Part shown: positions 19,774 to 28,415 of the stretch, piece after piece
Position numbering within the stretch: position 1 is the first letter of the stretch
Layout of the letters: each line of letters starts with the position of its first letter
Source: Candidatus Bathyarchaeota archaeon
Lineage (GTDB): Archaea > Thermoproteota > Bathyarchaeia > Bathyarchaeales > Bathycorpusculaceae
Length of the DNA stretch: 64,000 nt
Direction: 5' to 3'
Assembly (NCBI GenBank): GCA_963827165.1
Contig: CAWGZR010000003.1
Location: 1 to 64,000, forward strand
The notes under the pieces: model-generated
The model's database searches: none
Told to the model about the DNA's origin: nothing
What the model saw: the letters and a program-made list of their open reading frames with translations, nothing else
Made by a program: the position numbers and the translations under genes

Positions 19774-20519
19774 AAAAAATGGATTTGCAAAGTGCTTGGG
19801 CAGTTGCCGCAAAAGACTTCAAGATCTTCAAACGGAAGAGTCAGGTTATCTATATCACCGTTGTTTTCCCTCTTGTTGTCGGAATTGCGTTCCCATTGAT
19901 TGTGCAATATGCACTGCACATTGGCAGTGGCCACGGAATAACCGCCTTAACTCTTCCCAGGTACATGGACGCTTTCTCGGTATGGTTTCTCATAGGATCA
20001 GCCATAATTCCCACCACTATAGCCTCCTACAGTTTAGTGGGCGAGAAGCTCCAGAAGAGCTTGGAACCGCTTCTGGCAACGCCAATGACCGACGGCGAAA
20101 TCTTGTTGGGCAAAACTATTTCAGGGCTCGTCGTACCTTTGGCGGCGATCTATGCTGGTTCAGTGATATACATGTCGCTCATGGATTTGGTAACGCATGG
20201 CACGCTGGGTTATCTTTATTATCCTAACTGGCATATGGGGGCGATTTTGCTTGTGGCGCCATTGATATGTCTTCTAAGCGTTGAACTAAATATAATTATC
20301 TCATCCAGAGTAAACGATGTGCGAACAGCACAACAAATGGGAATGCTGTCAGCACTGCCCTTCTTTGGACTATACATAACGTCTGAAGTTGGATTCTTTG
20401 CATTCAATAACACAAATCTGCTGATTTTGGCAGGCGTTATCTTAGTAATAGCTGTTATTGTCTTCTTTGTCAGCAGGATTACATTCCAGAGAGAGGAAAT
20501 ACTAACAAAGTGGAAGTAG
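19770..20519 (+). CDS. ABC-2 exporter permease
   Basis: Six TM helices, GEK..KSLEPLLATP..EILLGK; 4-bp overlap with the ATPase. Confidence 0.88.
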   Translation: MKKMDLQSAWAVAAKDFKIFKRKSQVIYITVVFPLVVGIAFPLIVQYALHIGSGHGITALTLPRYMDAFSVWFLIGSAIIPTTIASYSLVGEKLQKSLEPLLATPMTDGEILLGKTISGLVVPLAAIYAGSVIYMSLMDLVTHGTLGYLYYPNWHMGAILLVAPLICLLSVELNIIISSRVNDVRTAQQMGMLSALPFFGLYITSEVGFFAFNNTNLLILAGVILVIAVIVFFVSRITFQREEILTKWK

Positions 20520-20549
20520 CAAAGTTAGAAGAGGGAGGTTCAAAAAAAA

Positions 20550-20801
20550 ATGACAAAAGCCAAGTTTGAAATAGGAGAGACTGAAAAACATACCATTATT
20601 GTTAATGCGAGCGCGCTTCTAAAATACATCAAGATAGAAGTGGATGGCGAAAAAGTCGTTAATGAAGCAAACTTTCAGCCATTGCCAAAGAAGTTCCAGT
20701 TGAACGTGGGAAATTCCGAAAAGCATCATTTGGAAATCAGCGCTGGACCATTCTCGCCTATCAAACTATTCGTGGACGGAAAAGAAGCTCAAAAAACCTG
20801 A
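20550..20801 (+). CDS. Small hypothetical protein with an internally duplicated beta motif
   Basis: RBS GGAGG; (I/V)GxxEKH...VDG unit occurs twice. Confidence 0.65.
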   Translation: MTKAKFEIGETEKHTIIVNASALLKYIKIEVDGEKVVNEANFQPLPKKFQLNVGNSEKHHLEISAGPFSPIKLFVDGKEAQKT

Positions 20802-20941
20802 AAGTTCGTCGCTATCCCAAAAGGTTGAAATTTAGCCAAACTAACCGGTAATCTTTTCCGGTGTGGTAAATATCTGAACAAGACAACACGCGCTAAAGTG
20901 GAAGCAACTAAGATGGAAGAGATGAGGGAGGAGGTGGATTA

Positions 20942-21151
20942 GTGGACTGGAATAGCGCCCGCGCAAAGCTCATCGTAGCGGGACCCATATTGATCGTTTT
21001 GGGTCTTGTCCTGTATGTTGTTCGAGGCGACACAGCGGTGCTTGTCTTTCCCGTCATAGGAATAATGTTGCTCATTGCCGGAGTTATCTGGGAGTTATCT
21101 ATAAGCCGCAAACAGAAGAAACCAGCGAACTTAACTAGCGGCAAACCCTAA
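20942..21151 (+). CDS. Small 2-TM membrane protein
   Basis: GGAGGTGG RBS before GTG; two hydrophobic helices. Confidence 0.55.
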   Translation: MDWNSARAKLIVAGPILIVLGLVLYVVRGDTAVLVFPVIGIMLLIAGVIWELSISRKQKKPANLTSGKP

Positions 21152-21221
21152 GCACGACCTCAACCGCTGCGTGTCAACTCCCCATTGGTCTATTTTTTCT
21201 TATTTTTAATTCTATTAGCAG

Positions 21222-21346
21222 AATCGGTAGTTTTTTGAGTTAGATGCTATATCTTCTGCGCTAAATTTTGCGGGGGAGCGAATGCTCCAAGCGATCCTGA
21301 GTTCGCCCCTTTCATCCAAAAGTCGGGAGTGTGGGTTGTTAGCATG
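21222..21346 (+). repeat. ~125-bp dispersed repeat, copy 2
   Basis: Aligns to 2354-2477; the following reading frame MAIKRKPPN* ends at the TAGCGCGC site. Confidence 0.85.
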
Positions 21347-21439
21347 GCAATTAAAAGAAAACCACCAAACTAGCGCGCCTATGTGAAGTCTCCTAATTAG
21401 TCTTTCCTTTCTTCTTCATGCTGTCAAATTCCTCTTAGT

Positions 21440-21568
21440 TAATTCCTCGTCGAAGTGAAGGGCACGCGCCTATTCGCCCACATTTGGGGCACTATGGCTC
21501 CGCATCCAGACCCTCCTCAATCGCGCTAACGTCCACACCAAGGAGACAGCGCTACAACGAGGAAAAGT
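21440..21568 (-). ncRNA. Putative bridge/seek RNA of the IS1111-type element
   Basis: Two stem-internal loop-stem units whose loops match the target (TTAGCGCG, TAGCGC) and donor (ATAGGCGCG, CCAT) junction sequences. Confidence 0.75.
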
Positions 21569-22558
21569 TCAGGCCTGATCATAATACGGCTTCTTATTCT
21601 TCAACACCGAATAACTGCACATAAGAAGCCTCCTTGCAGCCGCAACGGTCGCGATCTTTTTGCCCCTCTTCTCCGCAACCCGATTATACGCTCGGGTTAT
21701 GGAAGTATCATACTTGTGAACGTGTGTTTGAGCAGTCTCAACCATAACCCAACGAAGCCACCTGCTTCCTTCCTTAGTGATGTCTCCATGCCTAACAGTG
21801 CGGCCAGAAGCATGCGTAGAAGGCACCAACCCCGCGTAACTGCAAAGTCGCTCACCAAACGGAAAACGATCAATGCTGCCAATTTCACTCTTCATGAGAA
21901 CAGCCGAGTAATAGCCGATTCCAGGAATAGTCATCAACAACTTCACCTCTTCATCGCCCTCAGCTATTCCTACAAGCTCCTTAGAAAGCAGCTTAATCTC
22001 CTCATCCAACGGCTTCAAAACCCGCAGATAGCACTCAACCGAATCAAGATTTAGACCATGAAGCCACTCCACGCCATTCTTCGTGAAAAGTCCATGGTCA
22101 ACTGGCCACTTCAACCCTTCATACGTTAAGACGCTTTTGACCTTCACCCTGAGCTTGACGCGTTCTCTAACCAAGAAAGCCCTACGCCTAACCTTCTCTC
22201 TGAGGTTAGCGATTTTTCCTTCTGGAAAGTAAGCCAGCGGCAAAGCATCCAACCTGACCAATTCAGCTATAATCTTAGAGTCCACCCGGTCGCATTTAAT
22301 TTTAGCTTCTGCGATGTAACGGGTCTTTTTCGGATGGGAAACCACAACATTGTATCCTTTGGCGGTCAACTGCCTGAACAGTGGTGCAATCTGGTTTGAA
22401 GATTCCATGCCAACCTTGCCTACTTCAAAATGCGAGAGATAGGGAAGCACTTTTTCATTGCACATTTTTGTTTGATTGATTATTTTTCCTTCAGAGTTCA
22501 AAATAGTCGCATAAGTGCTATCCTTATGCACGTCCAAACCGCAAACGAAGGCGCTCAT
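21569..22558 (-). CDS. IS110 recombinase/transposase (DEDD plus Tnp20 domains)
   Basis: GLDVHK, MES, KCDRVDS, TIPGIG, YAGLVPSTHASG (catalytic Ser), KEGSRWLR. Confidence 0.95.
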   Translation of the reverse strand: MSAFVCGLDVHKDSTYATILNSEGKIINQTKMCNEKVLPYLSHFEVGKVGMESSNQIAPLFRQLTAKGYNVVVSHPKKTRYIAEAKIKCDRVDSKIIAELVRLDALPLAYFPEGKIANLREKVRRRAFLVRERVKLRVKVKSVLTYEGLKWPVDHGLFTKNGVEWLHGLNLDSVECYLRVLKPLDEEIKLLSKELVGIAEGDEEVKLLMTIPGIGYYSAVLMKSEIGSIDRFPFGERLCSYAGLVPSTHASGRTVRHGDITKEGSRWLRWVMVETAQTHVHKYDTSITRAYNRVAEKRGKKIATVAAARRLLMCSYSVLKNKKPYYDQA

Positions 22559-22725
22559 AGAATGGCATGAGCGCCCACGGCGTTTAACACTTCCCATACC
22601 ATCGCGCTAAACGCAATAAAAGGGGACCAATATGCAAGAAATTTCTGTTTGGATTCAAATCAGAAGCGGTTTGGGTCTCTATGGATTTGAACCCAAAAAC
22701 AATTGAGACCAATCCATACCCTGAG

Positions 22726-24371
22726 CAGACTGTGTCGAAACTCAGAACTAAACTTCAAGAGCCCCTGTAATCTAAGCCATTGCCCGGTATCTTCCTCTGC
22801 GTCTTCCCCGTTTTTTTACGCCTTAATCAAACTCATCAACGTTCCGACCCCGAGAATGTTGATAGCCCTTCTGATGTTGTAAGCCATCATGGTAAATCCA
22901 ACCTCTCCTTTTACCTTCCTAATGCCCTTCAAGAGTAGATAGCCTTGGTTGAAAGCTCTCTTCATTGTTCCAAAAGGATGCTCAACTATCTCACGCCTCA
23001 AACTCAGCTTCTCCACACCCTCAGAACTGCCCACCCTTGCTCTCAACCTGTCCACAGTGTCCTGATACTCAGGCCTAAATATACGCCTCCCACGCCTGTT
23101 CCTAGTGCACCTACCTCTGAAAGCACAAGACATACAGAGTTTCGTCCCGTAGAGACCACCCCAACACTGCTCTTTTCCCCGATAACTACGCCTCAAAAGC
23201 TCCAGCTCAGCTCCGCCAGGACAAACATAAACCTCTCGTCTAGCATCGTAAACAAACTTGTCCGAGCAAAACTCAGGCTCAGGCACGCCAATACTCTTTG
23301 TCGGGTTAAACGATGGTATGGGCATGAAAACTGTAATTCCATGGTTCTCGCAGTCTTTCACGTCATTTGCAACATAGAATCCCTTGTCGGTTATAACCTC
23401 CAACTTGTCAACGCCAAGAGTCTTCTTCGCCATCTCAGCATCATTAAAAAGTTGATGATGATCAGTTGAATTGTTAATGACATCATAATCGACGATAAGA
23501 TGCTGCTTGGCATCAACTGACGTTTGAATATTGTAGCTGACTTCGAGCCGTTGACTATCCACTCTCATCAAACGGCTATCTGGATCCACAAGCGAAACCT
23601 CACTTTGACCCGTAGCCTTCATTTGGTCCTGAACTTGCTCGTATCGTTGCTTTTCCTCTTCAAGTTTGCATATTTTCTCCTTGAGCTCATCGACATTAAC
23701 GCTTTCATCTTCAGATGAATCAGCTGAATCGTTCCTGTCCATTTCTTTGAGATACTCCGCTATCTTTTCTTCTGTTTGCTTGAGTCTTAGAGCGACTGTT
23801 TTCTTATTGAGATTATTGCTCCTAGAATTTACAGCCTTGAACTTGGTTCCATCAATAGCTACCAGTTGAGCACCGTAAAGATCTAGGCTTCTGCAGAGGT
23901 AAACAAATTCTTTGAACACTCCTTTGATGCAATCGACGTTGTCTTTTCTGAAGTCAGCGATTGTTTTGAAGTCAGGAGCTAACTTTTTCATGAGCCACAT
24001 GACCTCAACGTTTCGGTGGCACTCTTTCTCGAGTTTTCTGCTGGATCTCACCTGGTTTAGGTAGCCGTAAACGTATAGTTTGAGAAGGTCTGAAGGATTA
24101 TACGATGGTCTACCTGTATCTGCGAGTACTGAATGCTTGAATCCGAGCTTCTCTAAGTTGAGGCTATCGATAAAAGCATCAATGAACCGAACTGGGTTTT
24201 CCTTGTCGACGTAATCGTCGAGCATGCTTGGGAAGAGAACTGATTGCTTTCTGTAATGGCCTGTTACGTGTTCGCTCATGGCTTTTCAGCTCTTTCTGTT
24301 GCTCTAAAGCCAGTCTAGATTTAAGGTTAACGGTAAATAGCCGCAAAGAAAGAGACTTTTCACACACTCTC
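22726..24371 (-). mobile_element. IS1182-family element, copy 1
   Basis: Imperfect 18-bp TIRs CAGACTGTGTCGAAACTC / GACTTTTCACACACTCTC; no TSD visible. Confidence 0.88.
22816..24279 (-). CDS. IS1182-family DDE transposase
   Basis: GRPSYNP..LLKLYVYGYLN..SSR.LE, PDFKTIADFRK, IDGTK, DKGF, VEHPFGTMK. Confidence 0.93.
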   Translation of the reverse strand: MSEHVTGHYRKQSVLFPSMLDDYVDKENPVRFIDAFIDSLNLEKLGFKHSVLADTGRPSYNPSDLLKLYVYGYLNQVRSSRKLEKECHRNVEVMWLMKKLAPDFKTIADFRKDNVDCIKGVFKEFVYLCRSLDLYGAQLVAIDGTKFKAVNSRSNNLNKKTVALRLKQTEEKIAEYLKEMDRNDSADSSEDESVNVDELKEKICKLEEEKQRYEQVQDQMKATGQSEVSLVDPDSRLMRVDSQRLEVSYNIQTSVDAKQHLIVDYDVINNSTDHHQLFNDAEMAKKTLGVDKLEVITDKGFYVANDVKDCENHGITVFMPIPSFNPTKSIGVPEPEFCSDKFVYDARREVYVCPGGAELELLRRSYRGKEQCWGGLYGTKLCMSCAFRGRCTRNRRGRRIFRPEYQDTVDRLRARVGSSEGVEKLSLRREIVEHPFGTMKRAFNQGYLLLKGIRKVKGEVGFTMMAYNIRRAINILGVGTLMSLIKA

Positions 24372-24397
24372 ACCGTCAGGTGGAGATGTCACCTGCT

Positions 24398-25054
24398 CTA
24401 AACCTTTTGGAACGTCAGTTCTCTTCCTTTTCTTTCAGCAATTTGAAGCATGTCACTTTTTCTTAAACAGTAAGTTATTTGGCGTGCGGTTCTTATCGAA
24501 ACTTTTGCCAAATCGGCTAATTCTCTATTGGTAAAGACGCTGTTTAGACCATTCGGCAGTACTTTTAGGAAATCAGCCTTTTTTTCGAAGAGAATTCTGT
24601 CATTAACGGCTATTAGCTTCCTGTCTTTGATGCTAACGCCTCTTCTTCTCCAGCTTCCTTTTCCATCTTCACATCTTACCTCTTCTTCATCAATAAATAG
24701 AACTTCCAAAGAAAAGTTATCTTCTCCAATCGTCTGTGGAATCATGACTAGTTCACGAAATAGGTCAGCAAGTCTTCCTTTTCTTGGAGATTTTCGCTTG
24801 CTATTAACTGTGTTGTCTTTGCTGATATGCGTTATCCGTTTTTGTTCTGGAAGAGGATAAACCAATCTCACCTTGTAGTTTTTAATCAGGGTTTCGAGCT
24901 TTCCTCGGATGGCTGAGAAATTCTTGGTCTGAACTTCAATGATTAAATCTCCTCGAAGTATGTCTACAATGTAGTTGCCTAATCTGACCTCGAACTGATC
25001 TCCTGGAAATGAGTACCATTTCTTAATTTCTGAATGAAGAGAGAACTCGTTCAT
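24398..25054 (-). CDS. Hypothetical protein, putative PD-(D/E)XK nuclease fold with C-terminal HTH
   Basis: E.SLH...EV...YIVDI...IIEVQT; C-terminus FTNRELADLAKVS...QITYCLRK. Confidence 0.6.
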   Translation of the reverse strand: MNEFSLHSEIKKWYSFPGDQFEVRLGNYIVDILRGDLIIEVQTKNFSAIRGKLETLIKNYKVRLVYPLPEQKRITHISKDNTVNSKRKSPRKGRLADLFRELVMIPQTIGEDNFSLEVLFIDEEEVRCEDGKGSWRRRGVSIKDRKLIAVNDRILFEKKADFLKVLPNGLNSVFTNRELADLAKVSIRTARQITYCLRKSDMLQIAERKGRELTFQKV

Positions 25055-25094
25055 TAGGCTTCAAAAGTAAAATTGGCAACTAATAAGGGTAGGG

Positions 25095-25120
25095 TGGCGG
25101 CCCGCTGGGACTAGACCCCA
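25095..25120 (-). other. Decayed tRNA 3'-end fragment, related to 7902-7928
   Basis: TGGCGG-CCCGCTGGGA..GACCCCA versus TGGCGGGCCCGCTGGGT..GAACCCA. Confidence 0.55.
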
Positions 25121-25123
25121 AAA

Positions 25124-26768
25124 CAGACTGTGTCAAAACTCAGCGCTAAAACCTAAGAGTATCTGGCACCAAATCTATTGCTTTCGATTATCTGCACTTA
25201 TTTTCTTTTTCTTACGCCTTAATCAAATTTATTAGCGTTCCAACTCCAAGTATGTTGATAGCCCTTCGCATGTTGTAAGCCAGCATAGTAAATCCAACTT
25301 CTCCCCTAACCTTCCTCAAGCCTTTTAGGAGCACATAGCCTTGATTGAAAGCTCGCTTCATAGTCCCAAAGGGATGCTCAGCCAAAGTCCTCCGCAGTCG
25401 ACACTTCACTTTACCTTCAGAAGTCTCCAATCTAGCCCTGAGACGATCAACCGAGCCGTCATATTCGCCTCTGAACATGTACCTTCCACGCTTATTTCTA
25501 GTACACTTTCCCCTAACTAAACAAGAATCGCATAGTCTTGATCTATACAACCTACCGTCAAAACCCTTCCCTCGATTACTCCTCTTCCAAAAAGGCATCT
25601 CATTTCCAGCAGGACAGACATACACATCCTTAGCTGCATCATAAACAAATCGATCGCTGTAGAACTCTGGTTCAGGAACCCCAACACTCTTGTACGGATT
25701 AAAAGCATCGGGAATAGGCATGAAAACCCTAATCCCACTATTCTCACAATCAAAGACATCTTGCTCAACATAGAACCCCTTGTCACTCAAAACATCAAGC
25801 GCCTCAACACCCAAGATCTGCTTTGCGGCTAACGCGTCCTTAGTGAGTTGGTGATGATCTGTCGAGTTATTTATCACATCATAATCAACAATAAGGTGTT
25901 GTTTCGCGTCAACTGATGTTTGAATGTTGTAGCCAACTTCAAGCCGTTGACTATCAACCCTCATCAAACGGCCTATCTGGATCCACCAGAGAAACCTCTC
26001 TTTGGCCTGTAGCTTTCATATGGTTCTGGATATGCTCGTATTGTTGTTTCTTCTCTTCTAGCTGACTTATTTTTGCCTTGAGCTCATCGGTTTTGGCTGT
26101 TTCATCTTCATTTGAATCATCTGCATCATTGCGGTCCAGTTCACTAAGGTATTGCGCGATCTTTTCCTCTGTTTGCTTGAGCCTCAATGCAACTGTTTTC
26201 TCATTGAGGTTGTTGCTCTTGGAATTGACAGCCTTGAATTTGGTTCCATCAATCGCTACCAGCTGGGCTCCGTAAAGATCCAGGCTCCTGCAGAGGTAAA
26301 CAAACTCTTTGAAAACGCCTTTGATGCAATCGACGTTGTCTCTGCGGAAGTCAGCGATGGTTTTGAAGTCCGGAGCCAGCTTCTTCATCAGCCACATGGC
26401 CTCAACGTTGCGGTGGCACTCTTTCTCGAGTTTTCGGCTTGATCTCACCTGGTTGAGGTATCCGTAGACGTAGAGCTTGAGAAGATCTGAGGGATCATAA
26501 GATGGTCTGCCTGTGTCTGCGAGTACTGAGTGCTTGAATCCGAGCTTCTCTAAGTTGAGGCTATCGATAAAAGCGTCAATGAACCGTACTGGGTTCTCTT
26601 TGTCGACGTAATCGTCGAGTATGTTTGGGAAGAGAACTGATTGCTTTCTGTAATGGCCTGTTACGTGTTCGCTCATGGCTTTTCAGCTCTTTCTGTTGCT
26701 CTAAAGCCAGTCTAGATTTAAGGTTAACGGTAAATAGCCGCAAAGAAAGAGACTTTTCACACACTCTC
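25124..26768 (-). mobile_element. IS1182-family element, copy 2, with 4-bp TSD AAAA
   Basis: Same TIRs; AAAA at 25120-25123 and 26769-26772; the empty site CCCC-AAAA-GGGG is a hairpin. Confidence 0.9.
25212..26676 (-). pseudogene. IS1182 transposase with +1 frameshift near 25972
   Basis: CGGCCTATC versus CGGCTATC in copy 1; the two ORFs join into a full transposase. Confidence 0.85.
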
Positions 26769-26809
26769 AAAAGGGGGCGGAACCAATAGCGGATTCTGCC
26801 TATTTTTTA

Positions 26810-27962
26810 TTAAAAGCAGCAAATATCTTCTAAGTAAAATAGTCCATTTTCTCTGTAAAGATTGCAAATTTGATTTGCTGTATTTCTCTCGCCCCTTTCA
26901 TACAAATCTTTCACAAGGCGAGTGACTACATCATTCCTGTAAGAGACGAACAATCCGGAACTAGTCAATTCTAGAAATATGTTTCCAACTAATTTAGGAT
27001 CACTATTAACGAATTTAACCAAACCATCAAACAAGAAATTTGCTTGATAATCAAACTTGATGAATTTGACTATTTTGCTTAATATTTCAGCAGCCTGCTC
27101 ACTCATTTTATCCAGCAAGTTAATCCAATTAATCAGCGAAACCAAAACTTCTTGAAAATCAGAAACATCGTCCTTCTTAAGAATGGCATCAACCAGTTCC
27201 TTCCAAAGCGGAATTATTTTGGTTCTCTGTGATTCAGGCAACTGGGAACCAGCGGGAGAAAAAAATCTTGCGATAGCCAAAAACTGTATAGCGTCACACT
27301 TTTCAATCATCATGAGAATCAAGCTGTTTTTTTCTTCCAGTTTTTCAAAGTCATTCAGATAGCTAACTATAATGTGACCAGTTAGCATTTCATTTGCATG
27401 CTTGTCCTCGAAATTACACTTAATTGCTTCTTGATAGATTTCATTTAATTTCATTAGTTGATAGATTTCCTGATAAACTGCTGAGCTTCCGGCAAGGTAT
27501 CCGATCATGGCTCCTTTGAATAGATCTGTGTTTTTTCTTACGAAGATACGATTAATATTTTGAGTAACCCAGTCCTTGTCTATAAAATAAATAACGGTCA
27601 GATGGTATCCTAAAGCCACAAAAAATGCCATATCTTGCGGCATGCTAATGAATGGTTCTATTGCTTTCTTGATGTTTTCACTAAGGTTTGTCTGTTTGTT
27701 AAGACGCCGGATTTTCAGAGAGTAGTTTAGGATTGCGGAAATGATGGCTTCTTTTGGCGAATTCACGACTTCAATTATCAGATTATTTGAAGTGCCCAGT
27801 TGTGACCTGTCCTTTTCGAGAAATTCCAATAATATTTTTTCGCAGACAGGCAGAAGTGACGCCGCAAGCGTATGCTTCTCATCCTTACAGCCACTATCTA
27901 TCAGTTCTGCTGCACTTCTAATCAACCAATCTCTTGAACTTGTTTTTGGATCTTCCCAGAAA
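26810..27962 (-). pseudogene. C-terminal fragment of a large helical-repeat protein (possibly a defence NTPase)
   Basis: Frame is open upstream (RFWEDPKTSSRDWLIRSAA) to the CGCGCGCGC run; no convincing start; low GC. Confidence 0.5.
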
Positions 27963-27992
27963 CGCGCGCGCTGCTCTTACGGACTGAATTCT

Positions 27993-28415
27993 ATGGTAGA
28001 AATACTGAGCGTTACACTAATCGACTTGGAAACTCGAAAAGAAACGGTTTTGACTCGGAAGAAAAATTGGAAAGGAACAGACAGTAGATGCTTCTTTAAT
28101 GAGTGGATTGAGCACAAGAATTACAGGATTCAATTGAGATTGGATACTAACGATAACCCAAGCGTTGACCCAGTTTTAGATGCAGACATAATAGAACTAG
28201 CAACTGGTAAGAAAATCAAAAATGGCACGTGGCATCACACCCAAAAGGAGTACAACTCTCAAACAAATAGTTATATTTACACTTTCAAGTTTGAAGAGCT
28301 TCAACTACTCCTAAACTTTGCAATAGCATACCACCAAAAACTCTCTGAAAAAATTGGTTTTGTTGACAGTTTGACAGTGAAGCTAGTCAAGGGTAGACCC
28401 GAAGAGAAAAAATAG
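27993..28415 (+). CDS. Hypothetical protein
   Basis: ATG at 27993 within ORF 27741-28415; the upstream part overlaps the opposite-strand gene. Confidence 0.55.
   Translation: MVEILSVTLIDLETRKETVLTRKKNWKGTDSRCFFNEWIEHKNYRIQLRLDTNDNPSVDPVLDADIIELATGKKIKNGTWHHTQKEYNSQTNSYIYTFKFEELQLLLNFAIAYHQKLSEKIGFVDSLTVKLVKGRPEEKK

What the first reader, a model, noticed from the sequence alone, without database searches (positions are those of the whole stretch)
21374..22607. Archaeal IS1111-type element with readable bridge-RNA guides programmed for a palindromic TAGCGCGCTA target
Seen (minus strand): left junction TTTA-GCGCG-ATGG-TATGGGAAGT and right junction ACTTCACATA-G-GCGCG-CTAG. The empty target is therefore TTAGCGCGCTAG and the circle junction is CATAGGCGCGATGGTATG, with the IRs 10 nt apart (compatible with the 7+3 IS1111 layout). 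The non-coding end after the stop folds into two units. Unit 1: stem TTCCTCG/TGAGGAG enclosing TAGCGC (21549-21554, complementary to the right target arm), an inner hairpin, and TTAGCGCG (21522-21529, identical to the left target arm). Unit 2: CCATAGT (21491-21497, partly complementary to donor GCGATGG), hairpin GCCC/GGGC, and ATAGGCGCG (21465-21473, identical to the left donor arm). Established: IS110 recombinases use such bispecific RNAs. Notable here: an archaeal host, a palindromic target, right-guide-before-left-guide order, and a 5-bp identity shared by donor and target that could allow either orientation and target-target exchange.
Basis: partly seen in the sequence, partly recalled or inferred. 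Interest (0 to 1): 0.85.

Follow-up and report, generated by a model that had tools for sequence, protein, structure and literature searches.

The report
Archaeal IS1111-type element with bridge RNA
This is an intact insertion sequence of the IS110/IS1111 family in a Bathyarchaeia genome that carries its own two-loop guide ("bridge" or "seek") RNA; it is a well-supported but ordinary new member of a mechanism described in 2024.

Summary
The main reading holds. It is a 1.23-kb IS1111-type element on the minus strand, with a DEDD recombinase, 10-bp subterminal inverted repeats and about 115 nt of structured RNA after the stop codon.

Among about 90 relatives from Bathyarchaeia genomes and metagenomes, the four guide segments change together with the flanks and ends. 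All 13 left-target-guide types fit their own left flank best. Four RNA helices show compensatory changes.

Two details need correcting:
- The shared core is most likely a 2-nt YG, as in guide classes where only TG is common to both junctions, and as shown by uninterrupted copies of a DDE IS end that one class targets. The window's donor junction is then CATAGG-CG-ATGG, with the repeats 8 nt apart. Its target is TAGCG-CG-CGCTA, not TAGCGCGCTA.
- The "right guide before left guide" order is the published IS1111 layout, and archaeal IS110-family elements are known.

No RNA, circle junction or empty site was seen. Verdict: new member of a known kind, of moderate-to-low interest.

The parts
22603..22609 (-). 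Left target half-site TAGCGCG, made of LT TAGCG plus core CG (22604..22603). It is host DNA, identical to the left target guide.
   Evidence: In 34 unique class-1 insertions, positions -7..-1 are T33 A34 G34 C34 G33 C34 G34. Position -8 is not conserved.
22599..22602 (-). ATGG, the terminal extension of the left end (right donor, RD). The element starts here.
   Evidence: Homology among copies continues from the flank motif into ATGG-TATG. CCAU of the right donor guide is complementary to it.
22589..22598 (-). Left subterminal inverted repeat TATGGGAAGT.
   Evidence: It matches the right repeat in 9 of 10 positions and is conserved in relatives.
22550..22575 (-). Conserved hairpin GGCGCTCAT / ATGAGCGCC that encloses the likely start codon (ATG 22558..22556).
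   Evidence: Alignment. Two compensatory changes (L012, L013) were read by eye. The function was not tested.
21569..22558 (-). Recombinase gene, 329 aa counted from the conserved Met. The longest ORF starts at 22597 and gives 342 aa.
   Evidence: Pfam PF01548 at 1.5e-18 and PF02371 at 2.9e-21. Relatives align from MSAFVCGLDVHK. D9, E52, D90, D93, S251 and G252 are invariant in 8 homologs.
21558..21564 (-). 5' arm (UUCCUCG) of the outer stem of the target-binding unit. It pairs with 21513..21519.
   Evidence: RNAalifold and pair counts. Pair 11/63 reads CG 43, AU 9, GC 4, GU 3, UG 3.
21549..21557 (-). Right target guide UUGUAGCGC. UAGCGC is complementary to GCGCTA at 21376..21371, which is the core G plus CGCTA.
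   Evidence: Family level: 384 of 560 positions match, against 280.2 +/- 9.4 in shuffles.
21530..21548 (-). Inner hairpin of the target-binding unit (UGUCUC ... GUGGACG).
   Evidence: 6 pairs, 98.8% of cells paired, 3 pairs with changes on both sides.
21520..21529 (-). Left target guide UUAGCGCG (21529..21522) followed by AU (21521..21520). The AU matches the first two bases of the left end (AT) and sits in a handshake-like position.
   Evidence: 68 of 72 loci show at least 6 of 7 identity between guide and left flank.
21513..21519 (-). 3' arm (UGAGGAG) of the outer stem of the target-binding unit.
21492..21498 (-). Right donor guide GCCAUAG. CCAU pairs with ATGG of the left end.
   Evidence: In L014 the guide UCAUC fits its own end GATGA. 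This is the weakest of the four guides.
21475..21491 (-). Inner hairpin of the donor-binding unit (UGCCCC ... GUGGGCG).
   Evidence: 6 pairs, 99.3% of cells paired, 4 pairs with changes on both sides.
21465..21473 (-). Left donor guide AUAGG + CG (core) + CG. The last two bases match the first two target bases.
   Evidence: Identity with the right junction: core positions 76/80 and 79/80, next two positions 78/80 and 56/80.
21462..21464 (-). UGC, which pairs with GCG at 21501..21503. This is the short closing stem of the donor-binding unit.
   Evidence: 3 pairs, 99.0% of cells paired, 1 pair with a change on both sides.
21394..21407 (-). Purine run GGAAAGA plus A/T box TAATTA. This is a candidate archaeal BRE/TATA promoter pointing out of the right end.
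   Evidence: Conserved at a fixed distance in 72 unique right ends (A 69/72 at -20, A/T 100% at -20 and -19). The function is inferred only.
21380..21389 (-). Right subterminal inverted repeat ACTTCACATA.
21376..21379 (-). GG (terminal extension of the right end) plus core CG (21377..21376).
   Evidence: Register taken from relatives.
21370..21375 (-). Right target CGCTAG (host DNA).
   Evidence: Class-1 logo: +1 C 32/34, +2 G 29/34, +3 C 26/34, +4 T 21/34, +5 A 16/34.

Best explanation
The window holds one intact copy of an IS1111-type insertion sequence (IS110 family) on the minus strand, from 22602 to about 21376, about 1.23 kb. It belongs to a lineage that is widespread in Bathyarchaeia.

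It encodes a 329-aa DEDD/Ser recombinase. Directly after the stop codon lies an RNA of about 115 nt with two stem-internal loop-hairpin units.

Unit 1 reads the target:
[quoted passage not shown] Unit 2 reads the element's own joined ends:
- GCCAUAG pairs with ATGG of the left end.
- AUAGGCG pairs with the right end plus core.

Each 3'-side guide runs on for two bases that match the other DNA partner (AU = first bases of the left end; CG = first bases of the right target). IS621's handshake guides do the same.

Recombination most likely exchanges strands at a 2-nt YG core. For this copy that means donor CATAGG-CG-ATGG and target TAGCG-CG-CGCTA.

Shown here: the anatomy, the guide-flank and guide-end covariation, and the RNA helix covariation. 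Inferred: that the RNA is made and bound, circle formation, the position of strand exchange, and a promoter at the right end.
For: - Protein family and motifs. Pfam DEDD_Tnp_IS110 and Transposase_20 both match. D9, E52, D90, D93, S251 and G252 are invariant, and the AGLVPSTHASG motif is present.
- Distribution. 55 of 401 genomes of the class have an IS110-family match at E<=1e-30. 453 relatives were confirmed among 599 metagenome stretches, and 80 were kept.
- Left target guide against left flank. Of 72 loci, 57 match 7/7, 11 match 6/7, 3 match 5/7 and 1 matches 2/7. There are 13 guide types, and 13 of 13 fit their own flank best. Summed identity is 86 of 91, against 41.1 +/- 5.3 in shuffles (0 of 10000 reach it).
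- Right target guide against right flank. In 70 unique pairs, 384 of 560 positions match, against 280.2 +/- 9.4 (0 of 10000).
- Left donor guide against right end. Core positions match in 76/80 and 79/80 loci, and the two following bases in 78/80 and 56/80.
- RNA structure. In 70 distinct sequences with 22 pairs, 97.2% of cells are paired, against 38-58% when partners are slid. 9 pairs change on both sides, and 0 of 500 shuffles reach any measure.
- Site specificity. 34 unique class-1 insertions in unrelated flanks share TAGCGCG^CGCT.
- Core size. Class-4 copies sit in the terminal repeat of a DDE IS. All 6 uninterrupted ends in the window's genome read GAC/GAG-TGTGTG-AAAAG, whereas occupied sites read ..GAC-TG|IS|TG-TGTG-AAAAG.
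- Literature. The layout agrees with published IS1111 seekRNAs (PMC11187229: abstract and sections 6, 9) and with IS621 guide and handshake logic (PMC11208160 and PMC11208158: passages).
Against: - No evidence of the RNA itself. There is no Rfam match, and folding the single sequence is not better than shuffles. No RNA run held the non-coding end. The only RNA-library contig lies inside the ORF (22149-22299) and could be DNA carry-over.
- No circle junction was found in the loci or the own genome, in viral contigs or in 401 genomes of the class.
- No empty site was recovered for this or two related insertions.
- There is only one copy in the genome, so current activity is unproven.
- Within class 1 the distal right-guide positions do not follow the flank: 55 of 156 against 50.5 +/- 4.6, and 1901 of 10000 shuffles reach it. 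The window's 6-nt right match is therefore partly luck.
- The right donor guide pairs with only 4-5 bases and mismatches the core G.
- L086 has a left flank that does not fit its guide (2/7).
- Loci are related, so counts per locus overstate independence. The type-level counts are the fairer ones.
Confidence: 0.88

Rival explanations
1. Donor and target share the 5-bp stretch GCGCG. The empty target is TTAGCGCGCTAG and the circle junction is CATAGGCGCGATGGTATG, with the repeats 10 nt apart.
For: Both junctions in the window fit this as well as they fit the 2-nt core, because of the (CG)n context. The left donor guide AUAGGCGCG is identical to 9 nt of that junction. The 10-nt palindrome TAGCGCGCTA occurs twice unoccupied in the genome, while TAGCGCGCGCTA occurs 0 times. 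Class-1 junctions alone cannot exclude it.
Against: In homologous elements with the same ends and the same RNA scaffold, only YG is shared between the left junction (..YG|ATGG) and the right junction (CATAGG|YG..):
- class 2: GTTG against TGTT;
- class 3: CATG against TGCG;
- class 4: ACTG against TGTG;
- L013, L074 and L080 likewise.
A 4-5-nt overlap is impossible there. Class-4 occupied sites carry exactly one extra TG relative to the 6 uninterrupted DDE IS ends. Seven class-1 loci (L002, L073, L089, L093, L097, L110, L122) have CATAGG-CG-CT.. and lack GCGCG at the right junction. The extra two guide bases follow the target, not the donor, in other classes (78/80).
Confidence: 0.2
2. The copy in the window is an immobile relic. 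The family works as described, but this single copy no longer moves or makes functional RNA.
For: There is one copy in a 94.5%-complete genome. No circle junction or empty site was seen. Because the target is palindromic, the two target guides can pair with each other (the MFE pairs AGCGCU with AGCGCG), which might lower activity.
Against: The ORF is open and the catalytic residues are kept. Both ends and all four helices are intact. The guides fit the present flanks: left guide 8 of 8, right guide 6 consecutive, left donor guide 9 of 9.
Confidence: 0.25
3. The internal copies of flank and end sequences are DNA-level protein-binding repeats or chance matches. No RNA guide is involved.
For: No RNA was observed. 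The single-sequence fold is unremarkable.
Against: The stretches change with the insertion site in 13 of 13 guide types. One member of each pair is identical to the DNA and the other is complementary to it, as RNA pairing with opposite strands requires. The stretches sit in internal loops of helices that keep pairing through compensatory changes. RNA guidance has been shown experimentally for IS1111 and IS110 members (PMC11187229, PMC11208160).
Confidence: 0.03

Closest known systems
IS1111-family elements with seekRNA (ISEc11, ISPa11, ISKpn4; Siddiquee et al. 2024, PMC11187229)
   Same: - The long non-coding region lies downstream of the gene.
- Subterminal inverted repeats carry short terminal extensions.
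- The recombinase has about 330 aa and the GL-P----SG motif.
- The top-strand match lies 5' of the bottom-strand match in the RNA.
- Each sub-lineage has its own target.
   Different: - The host is an uncultivated archaeal class.
- Identity to the named members seen here is at most 36% (best plasmid hit 35.8%; IS5075 21.5%).
- The donor-binding unit and the handshake-like extensions are readable here from natural variation. That paper's text, as far as I read it, describes only the two target matches.
IS621 bridge RNA (Durrant et al. 2024, PMC11208160; Hiraizumi et al. 2024, PMC11208158)
   Same: - Two internal loops, one for the target and one for the donor.
- In each loop, one guide pairs with the bottom strand on the left and one with the top strand on the right.
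- A 2-nt core is shared by donor and target.
- Two extra bases after the 3'-side guide match the non-cognate DNA (handshake).
   Different: - The RNA sits in the right end, not the left end.
- The guide order is mirrored relative to the gene.
- The core is YG, not CT.
- The right target guide reaches only the core G, and the right donor guide mismatches it.
- Only the C-terminal half of the protein aligns with IS621 and ISCro4 (E about 1e-13).
[quoted passage not shown]
   Same: One sub-lineage of the present family (L088, L099, L114, L116) is programmed for, and sits in, the terminal repeat of another mobile element. For L099 and L114 that element is a DUF772/DDE IS.
   Different: The window's own copy targets a free-standing palindrome, not an IS end. 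The targeted element is an archaeal IS, not a Tn3-family transposon.
ISHvo10 and other haloarchaeal IS110-family elements
   Same: They are archaeal IS110-family recombinases and the best named matches in the plasmid collection (32-36% identity over 97-98% of the protein).
   Different: The identity is distant. Their RNAs and ends were not examined here. According to PMC11187229 section 6, ISHvo10 has long non-coding regions on both sides.

Membership tests
IS110 family (DEDD recombinase IS) | [quoted passage not shown] | tested here: met
   E = 1.5e-18 and 2.9e-21, both above the curated cut-offs.
IS110 family (DEDD recombinase IS) | Conserved D, E, D, D residues and the Ser-Gly of the C-terminal domain. 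| tested here: met
   D9, E52, D90, D93, S251 and G252 are invariant in 8 homologs of 56-100% identity. Their assignment to catalytic roles rests on analogy with IS621 (PMC11208158 passage) and is not aligned residue by residue.
IS1111 group | Subterminal inverted repeats of 7-17 bp. | tested here: met
   The 10-bp repeats match in 9 of 10 positions. They lie 4 nt (left) and 2 nt (right) from the core and are conserved in relatives.
IS1111 group | The longer non-coding region lies downstream of the recombinase gene. | tested here: met
   About 44 nt lie upstream of the conserved ATG, against 191 nt from the stop codon to the end of CATAGG.
IS1111 group | GL-P----S(t)G motif and a recombinase of 330-350 aa (PMC11187229 section 6). 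| tested here: met
   AGLVPSTHASG is present. G243, L244, P246, S251 and G252 are invariant. The length is 329 aa from the conserved Met, which is borderline, or 342 aa from the first ATG.
IS1111 group | The recombinase is related over its full length to IS1111-type proteins. | tested here: inconclusive
   IS5075 aligns over residues 7-325, but at 21.5% identity and E = 8e-6. An IS1328-annotated protein aligns at 35.9%. IS621 and ISCro4 align over the C-terminal half only. No tree with reference sequences was built.
IS1111 seekRNA / bridge RNA | In the RNA, the stretch complementary to the target's top strand lies 5' of the stretch complementary to the bottom strand. | tested here: met
   The right target guide (21557..21549) precedes the left target guide (21529..21522).
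IS1111 seekRNA / bridge RNA | Guide positions covary with insertion sites and element ends among homologs. | tested here: met
   (numbers in the For line). Exceptions: L086 (2/7), and the distal right-guide positions within class 1, which show no signal.
IS1111 seekRNA / bridge RNA | Conserved secondary structure with the guides in internal loops. | tested here: met
   Four helices with compensatory changes flank the guide stretches. A fifth predicted 3-bp helix joins GCC of the right donor guide to GGY of the left donor guide and varies on one side only.
IS1111 seekRNA / bridge RNA | [quoted passage not shown] | tested here: inconclusive
   The left target guide and left donor guide include both core bases. 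The right target guide reaches only the core G (through the invariant C before UGUC). The right donor guide of classes 1-4 places an A opposite the core G.
IS1111 seekRNA / bridge RNA | The RNA is transcribed, bound by the recombinase and required for transposition. | not testable with these tools
   No RNA run held the non-coding end.
IS1111 seekRNA / bridge RNA | Circular intermediate with joined ends. | tested here: inconclusive
   No joined ends were found in the held loci and own genome, in viral contigs, in 401 genomes or in 4 laid runs. Assemblies rarely keep such molecules, so this does not speak against it.

The most novel reading that the evidence does not exclude
This is an archaeal bridge-recombinase lineage that nature has re-programmed at least a dozen times. 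One re-programming points it at the terminal repeat of a co-resident DDE insertion sequence. It may also carry a complete archaeal BRE/TATA-type promoter at its right end that points outward. That promoter would face the recombinase gene only after the ends are joined in the circle, which would be an archaeal counterpart of the split sigma-70 junction promoter of bacterial IS110 elements. Its handshake positions follow the left guides, so the first strand exchange would be on the bottom strand relative to the gene.
Probability: 0.4. Interest if true: 0.5.

Novelty: new member of a known kind. Interest (0 to 1): 0.35.

Why it matters
The mechanism is established. What this locus adds is a natural data set. 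It is a compact archaeal IS1111-type system (329-aa protein, RNA of about 115 nt) with 13 left-guide types. These let target guides, donor guides, core and handshake-like positions be read directly from covariation. The data set also includes one lineage aimed at another IS's end.

That may help people who mine bridge recombinases for genome engineering, and people who annotate mobile elements in uncultivated archaea. It does not open a new question. I found no paper holding IS110 together with Bathyarchaeota or Bathyarchaeia. However, archaeal IS110 recombinases as a group are already catalogued (bioRxiv 10.1101/2024.06.21.599552). The supplementary tables of the 2024 papers, which I could not open, may already list such elements.

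Tried and rejected
**Rfam.** An E-value scan of 21000-23000 gave 5 matches, all far below their gathering scores and unrelated.

**Single-sequence fold.** It was not better than shuffles.

**Other copies in the genome.** None by DNA. By protein there is only one distant relative, at C3:151335-152311.

**Empty site for the window's insertion.**
- The right flank was searched in 61 genomes of the genus. It turned out to hold a repeat of about 135 bp (window 21222-21358) with several copies in the genome.
- Orthologous regions in relatives lose homology before the junction.
- The left flank is unique in the genome.

**Empty sites for relatives.** The left flanks of L010 and L002 were each searched in 101 genomes of the genus. 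None of the hits in other genomes reached the junction.

**Is the window's target inside the neighbouring DDE IS end?** No. That IS ends at about 22717, roughly 105 bp from the junction.

**Circle junction or tandem copies.** None in the held loci and own genome (the one regex hit, in L058, is coincidental). None in viral contigs. None in 401 genomes of the class.

**Sequencing runs.**
- No run held half of the sampled words; the best held 0.32.
- Laying 3 DNA runs and 1 RNA run gave only short contigs of relatives, and no joint across the element.
- One RNA-library contig lies inside the ORF. This says nothing about expression of the non-coding end.

**Other steps that gave nothing.**
- tRNA scan of 20000-28000: none.
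- I considered a second pairing of the 5' CCUCG with CGAGGAA downstream of unit 2, as in the MFE. I did not adopt it, because class 2 has no such partner while the stem with UGAGGAG covaries.
- No tree of recombinases was built, so the number of independent re-targeting events is not known. It is at most 13.
- Supplementary files of the papers were not opened.
Full report
**Observation.**
- The left junction is TTTAGCGCG-ATGG-TATGGGAAGT (22611..22589).
- The right junction is ACTTCACATA-GG-CGCGCTAG (21389..21369).
- The two 10-nt repeats match in 9 of 10 positions.
- After the stop codon (21571..21569) come, in order:
  - UUCCUCG;
  - UUGUAGCGC;
  - a hairpin;
  - UUAGCGCG-AU;
  - UGAGGAG;
  - GCG;
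  - GCCAUAG;
  - a hairpin;
  - AUAGGCGCG;
  - UGC.

The ORF 21569..22597 has both IS110-family Pfam domains. Relatives align from the Met at 22558, which gives 329 aa. The element is single-copy in its 3.13-Mb genome. It matches no Rfam family. Its 202-nt end does not fold better than shuffles (z = +0.29). The window alone therefore cannot show that the guide matches are meaningful.

**Relatives.**
- A scan of species-representative genomes found 4 loci, whose record titles name Bathyarchaeota or Bathyarchaeia MAGs.
- In 401 genomes of the class, 55 have an IS110-family match at E<=1e-30.
- A metagenome scan with an 8-protein alignment confirmed 453 relatives among 599 stretches and kept the best 80, at 67-93% identity.
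- I oriented every locus with at least 50% identity (98 loci) and located the ends with two degenerate patterns.
- I then aligned 84 non-coding ends.

**Guides covary with DNA.** The stretch corresponding to UUAGCGCG falls into 13 types, including TAGCGCG, GTTGTTG, CCGCATG, GAGACTG, CGGCCTG, GCGCGCG, TCTCCCG, TCACCCG, TAAAATG and GAAGTTG.
- Of 72 loci with both guide and left flank, 57 match 7/7, 11 match 6/7, 3 match 5/7 and 1 (L086) matches 2/7.
- At type level, 13 of 13 types fit their own flank best. Summed identity is 86 of 91, against 41.1 +/- 5.3 in shuffles (0 of 10000).
- The reverse complement of the 5'-side stretch matches the right flank at 384 of 560 positions in 70 unique pairs, against 280.2 +/- 9.4 (0 of 10000).
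- Within class 1, however, the distal four positions carry no signal: 55 of 156 against 50.5 +/- 4.6.
- The stretch AUAGGYG is identical to the right end plus core in 76/80 and 79/80 loci at the two variable positions.
- The fourth stretch (GCCAUAG) pairs with only 4-5 bases of the left end. It changes with the end in the L013 and L014 lineages.
- 34 unique class-1 insertions lie in unrelated flanks and share TAGCGCG^CGCT(A). One of the 34, L003, has a false right flank.

**RNA structure.** RNAalifold on 70 distinct sequences predicts the outer stem and inner hairpin of each unit, with the guides left in internal loops. It also predicts a fifth, 3-bp helix that joins GCC of the right donor guide to GGY of the left donor guide. 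That helix varies on one side only and may just reflect the partial complementarity of the two donor guides. Over all 22 pairs:
- 97.2% of cells are paired, against 38-58% with slid partners.
- 9 pairs change on both sides (56 cells).
- None of 500 shuffles reaches any measure.

**Register and core.** In the window the CG repeat makes the crossover position ambiguous. In other classes it is not.
- With the ends held fixed (..|ATGG on the left, CATAGG|.. on the right), only YG is common to both junctions. This holds for class 2 (..GTTG against TGTT..), class 3 (..CATG against TGCG..) and class 4 (..ACTG against TGTG..). It also holds for L013, L074 and L080.
- Of the four class-4 copies, L099 and L114 have right flanks homologous to the 5' end of a DUF772/DDE IS that has several copies in the window's genome.
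- All 6 uninterrupted ends of that IS read (C/G)AGA(C/G)-TGTGTG-AAAAGTCTC. In L099, the one class-4 copy with both junctions in that IS, the left junction has one TG and the right has three. That is one TG more, as a 2-nt core duplication predicts.

By homology the window's donor junction is CATAGG-CG-ATGGTATG and its target is TAGCG-CG-CGCTA. I put this at about 0.7.

**Handshake-like positions.** The two bases after the core in the left donor guide match the first two bases of the right target, in 78/80 and 56/80 loci. Three different letters are matched at the first of these positions. The two bases after the core in the left target guide (AU) match the first two bases of the left end (AT); both are nearly invariant. 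In IS621 the handshake guides likewise follow the 3'-side guide of each loop and pair with the non-cognate DNA after strand exchange (PMC11208158, passages). Seen from the RNA, the architecture is therefore the same. Seen from the gene, it is mirrored.

**Comparison with the literature.**
- PMC11187229 (abstract and sections 6, 9 and 13 read) gives the IS1111 features. These are a downstream non-coding region, subterminal repeats, a protein of 330-350 aa and the GL-P----S(t)G motif. The top-strand match lies 5' of the bottom-strand match, with the order reversed in IS110. It mentions the archaeal ISHvo9 and ISHvo10.
- PMC11208160 (passages) defines the four guides and the core. It reports bridge RNAs predicted in the right end of 93.0% of ISfinder IS1111 elements.
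- bioRxiv 10.1101/2024.06.21.599552 (passages) counts 662 archaeal IS110 recombinases.

The host domain, the guide order and the palindromic target are thus not new in kind. No paper in the held library has IS110 together with Bathyarchaeota or Bathyarchaeia.

The nearest named proteins are as follows:
- haloarchaeal IS110-family transposases (32-36% identity; ISHvo10 32.3%) and an IS1328-annotated protein (35.9%);
- IS5075, which aligns full-length at 21.5%;
- IS621 and ISCro4 structures, which align only over the C-terminal half.

**What remains inferred.** No RNA, circle or empty site was observed. A purine run plus an A/T box (window GGAAAGA..TAATTA, 21407..21394) is conserved at a fixed distance from the right end in 72 unique ends. 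From my recollection of archaeal promoters (BRE plus a TATA box about 26 nt upstream of the start), it could start transcription near the left repeat once the ends are joined. This is a hypothesis only.

**Verdict.** This is a correctly spotted, intact IS1111-type element with a readable bridge RNA. The comparative evidence is strong. The target and donor register is corrected. The novelty is limited to a new archaeal lineage with informative natural variation.

Noticed in passing
window 22717-24390 (minus) and 25207-26769 (minus); also G000 C9, C13 and C3:138262-149710: An IS with a DUF772 + DDE_Tnp_1_6 + DDE_Tnp_1 transposase (487 aa). The genome holds the window copy plus 7 further matches at 76-79% identity, two of which look like halves of one interrupted copy. 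Its terminal repeats read CAGACTGTGTGAAAAGTCTC. The flanks of several copies look like tRNA T-arm and acceptor ends (for example GGGTTCAAATCC), but ARAGORN finds no tRNA in 20000-28000.
   Followed up: partly
L088, L099, L114, L116 (metagenome loci): A sub-lineage of the IS1111-type family has guides AGAGACUG and UUUUUCACA(C). In L099 and L114 it sits inside the terminal repeat of the DUF772/DDE IS family. In L088 and L116 it sits in a different element with a similar end. This recalls IS4321/IS5075 in Tn21 ends.
   Followed up: partly
window 22550-22575 (minus): A conserved 9-bp hairpin, GGCGCTCAT/ATGAGCGCC, has the recombinase start codon in its 3' arm. Compensatory changes in L012 and L013 were seen by eye in the alignment. 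It may control translation or be a binding site.
   Followed up: partly
window 21222-21358: A repeat of about 135 bp lies directly beside the right junction. Related copies occur at C3:2354, C5:30671, C9:314479, C11:188481 and C13:19226, and in other genomes of the genus. It contains a conserved CTTTTGGATGAAGGGGGCGAAC block. Its nature is unknown.
   Followed up: partly
window 13765 and 54878; G000 C6:17586, C7:49559, C9:23605: A repeated motif AATTT(C/A)GGGA(C/G)AA(A/G)(C/G)(T/C)-AGCGCGCT occurs in both orientations. It looks like the end of another repeated element. It contains a near-copy of the IS1111-type target palindrome.
   Followed up: no
L086 (metagenome locus): This is the one clear exception to guide-flank matching. 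Its left target guide UUCACCCG faces the left flank CCAGACTG, which resembles a DDE IS end, and its right junction core reads AG. The left flank may have been replaced by a later insertion.
   Followed up: no
window 21564 and 22603 (loose ends in laid runs X1, X3): Contigs of relatives in public soil and wetland runs diverge from the window exactly at the right target guide and at the left junction. At least one further guide/flank class appears: its right guide reads UUUUUUAAC, and a run of T lies just upstream of the core G in the left flank.
   Followed up: no
G000 C3:151335-152311: A second, distant IS110-family remnant, seen as two tblastn pieces at 34-37% identity.
   Followed up: no
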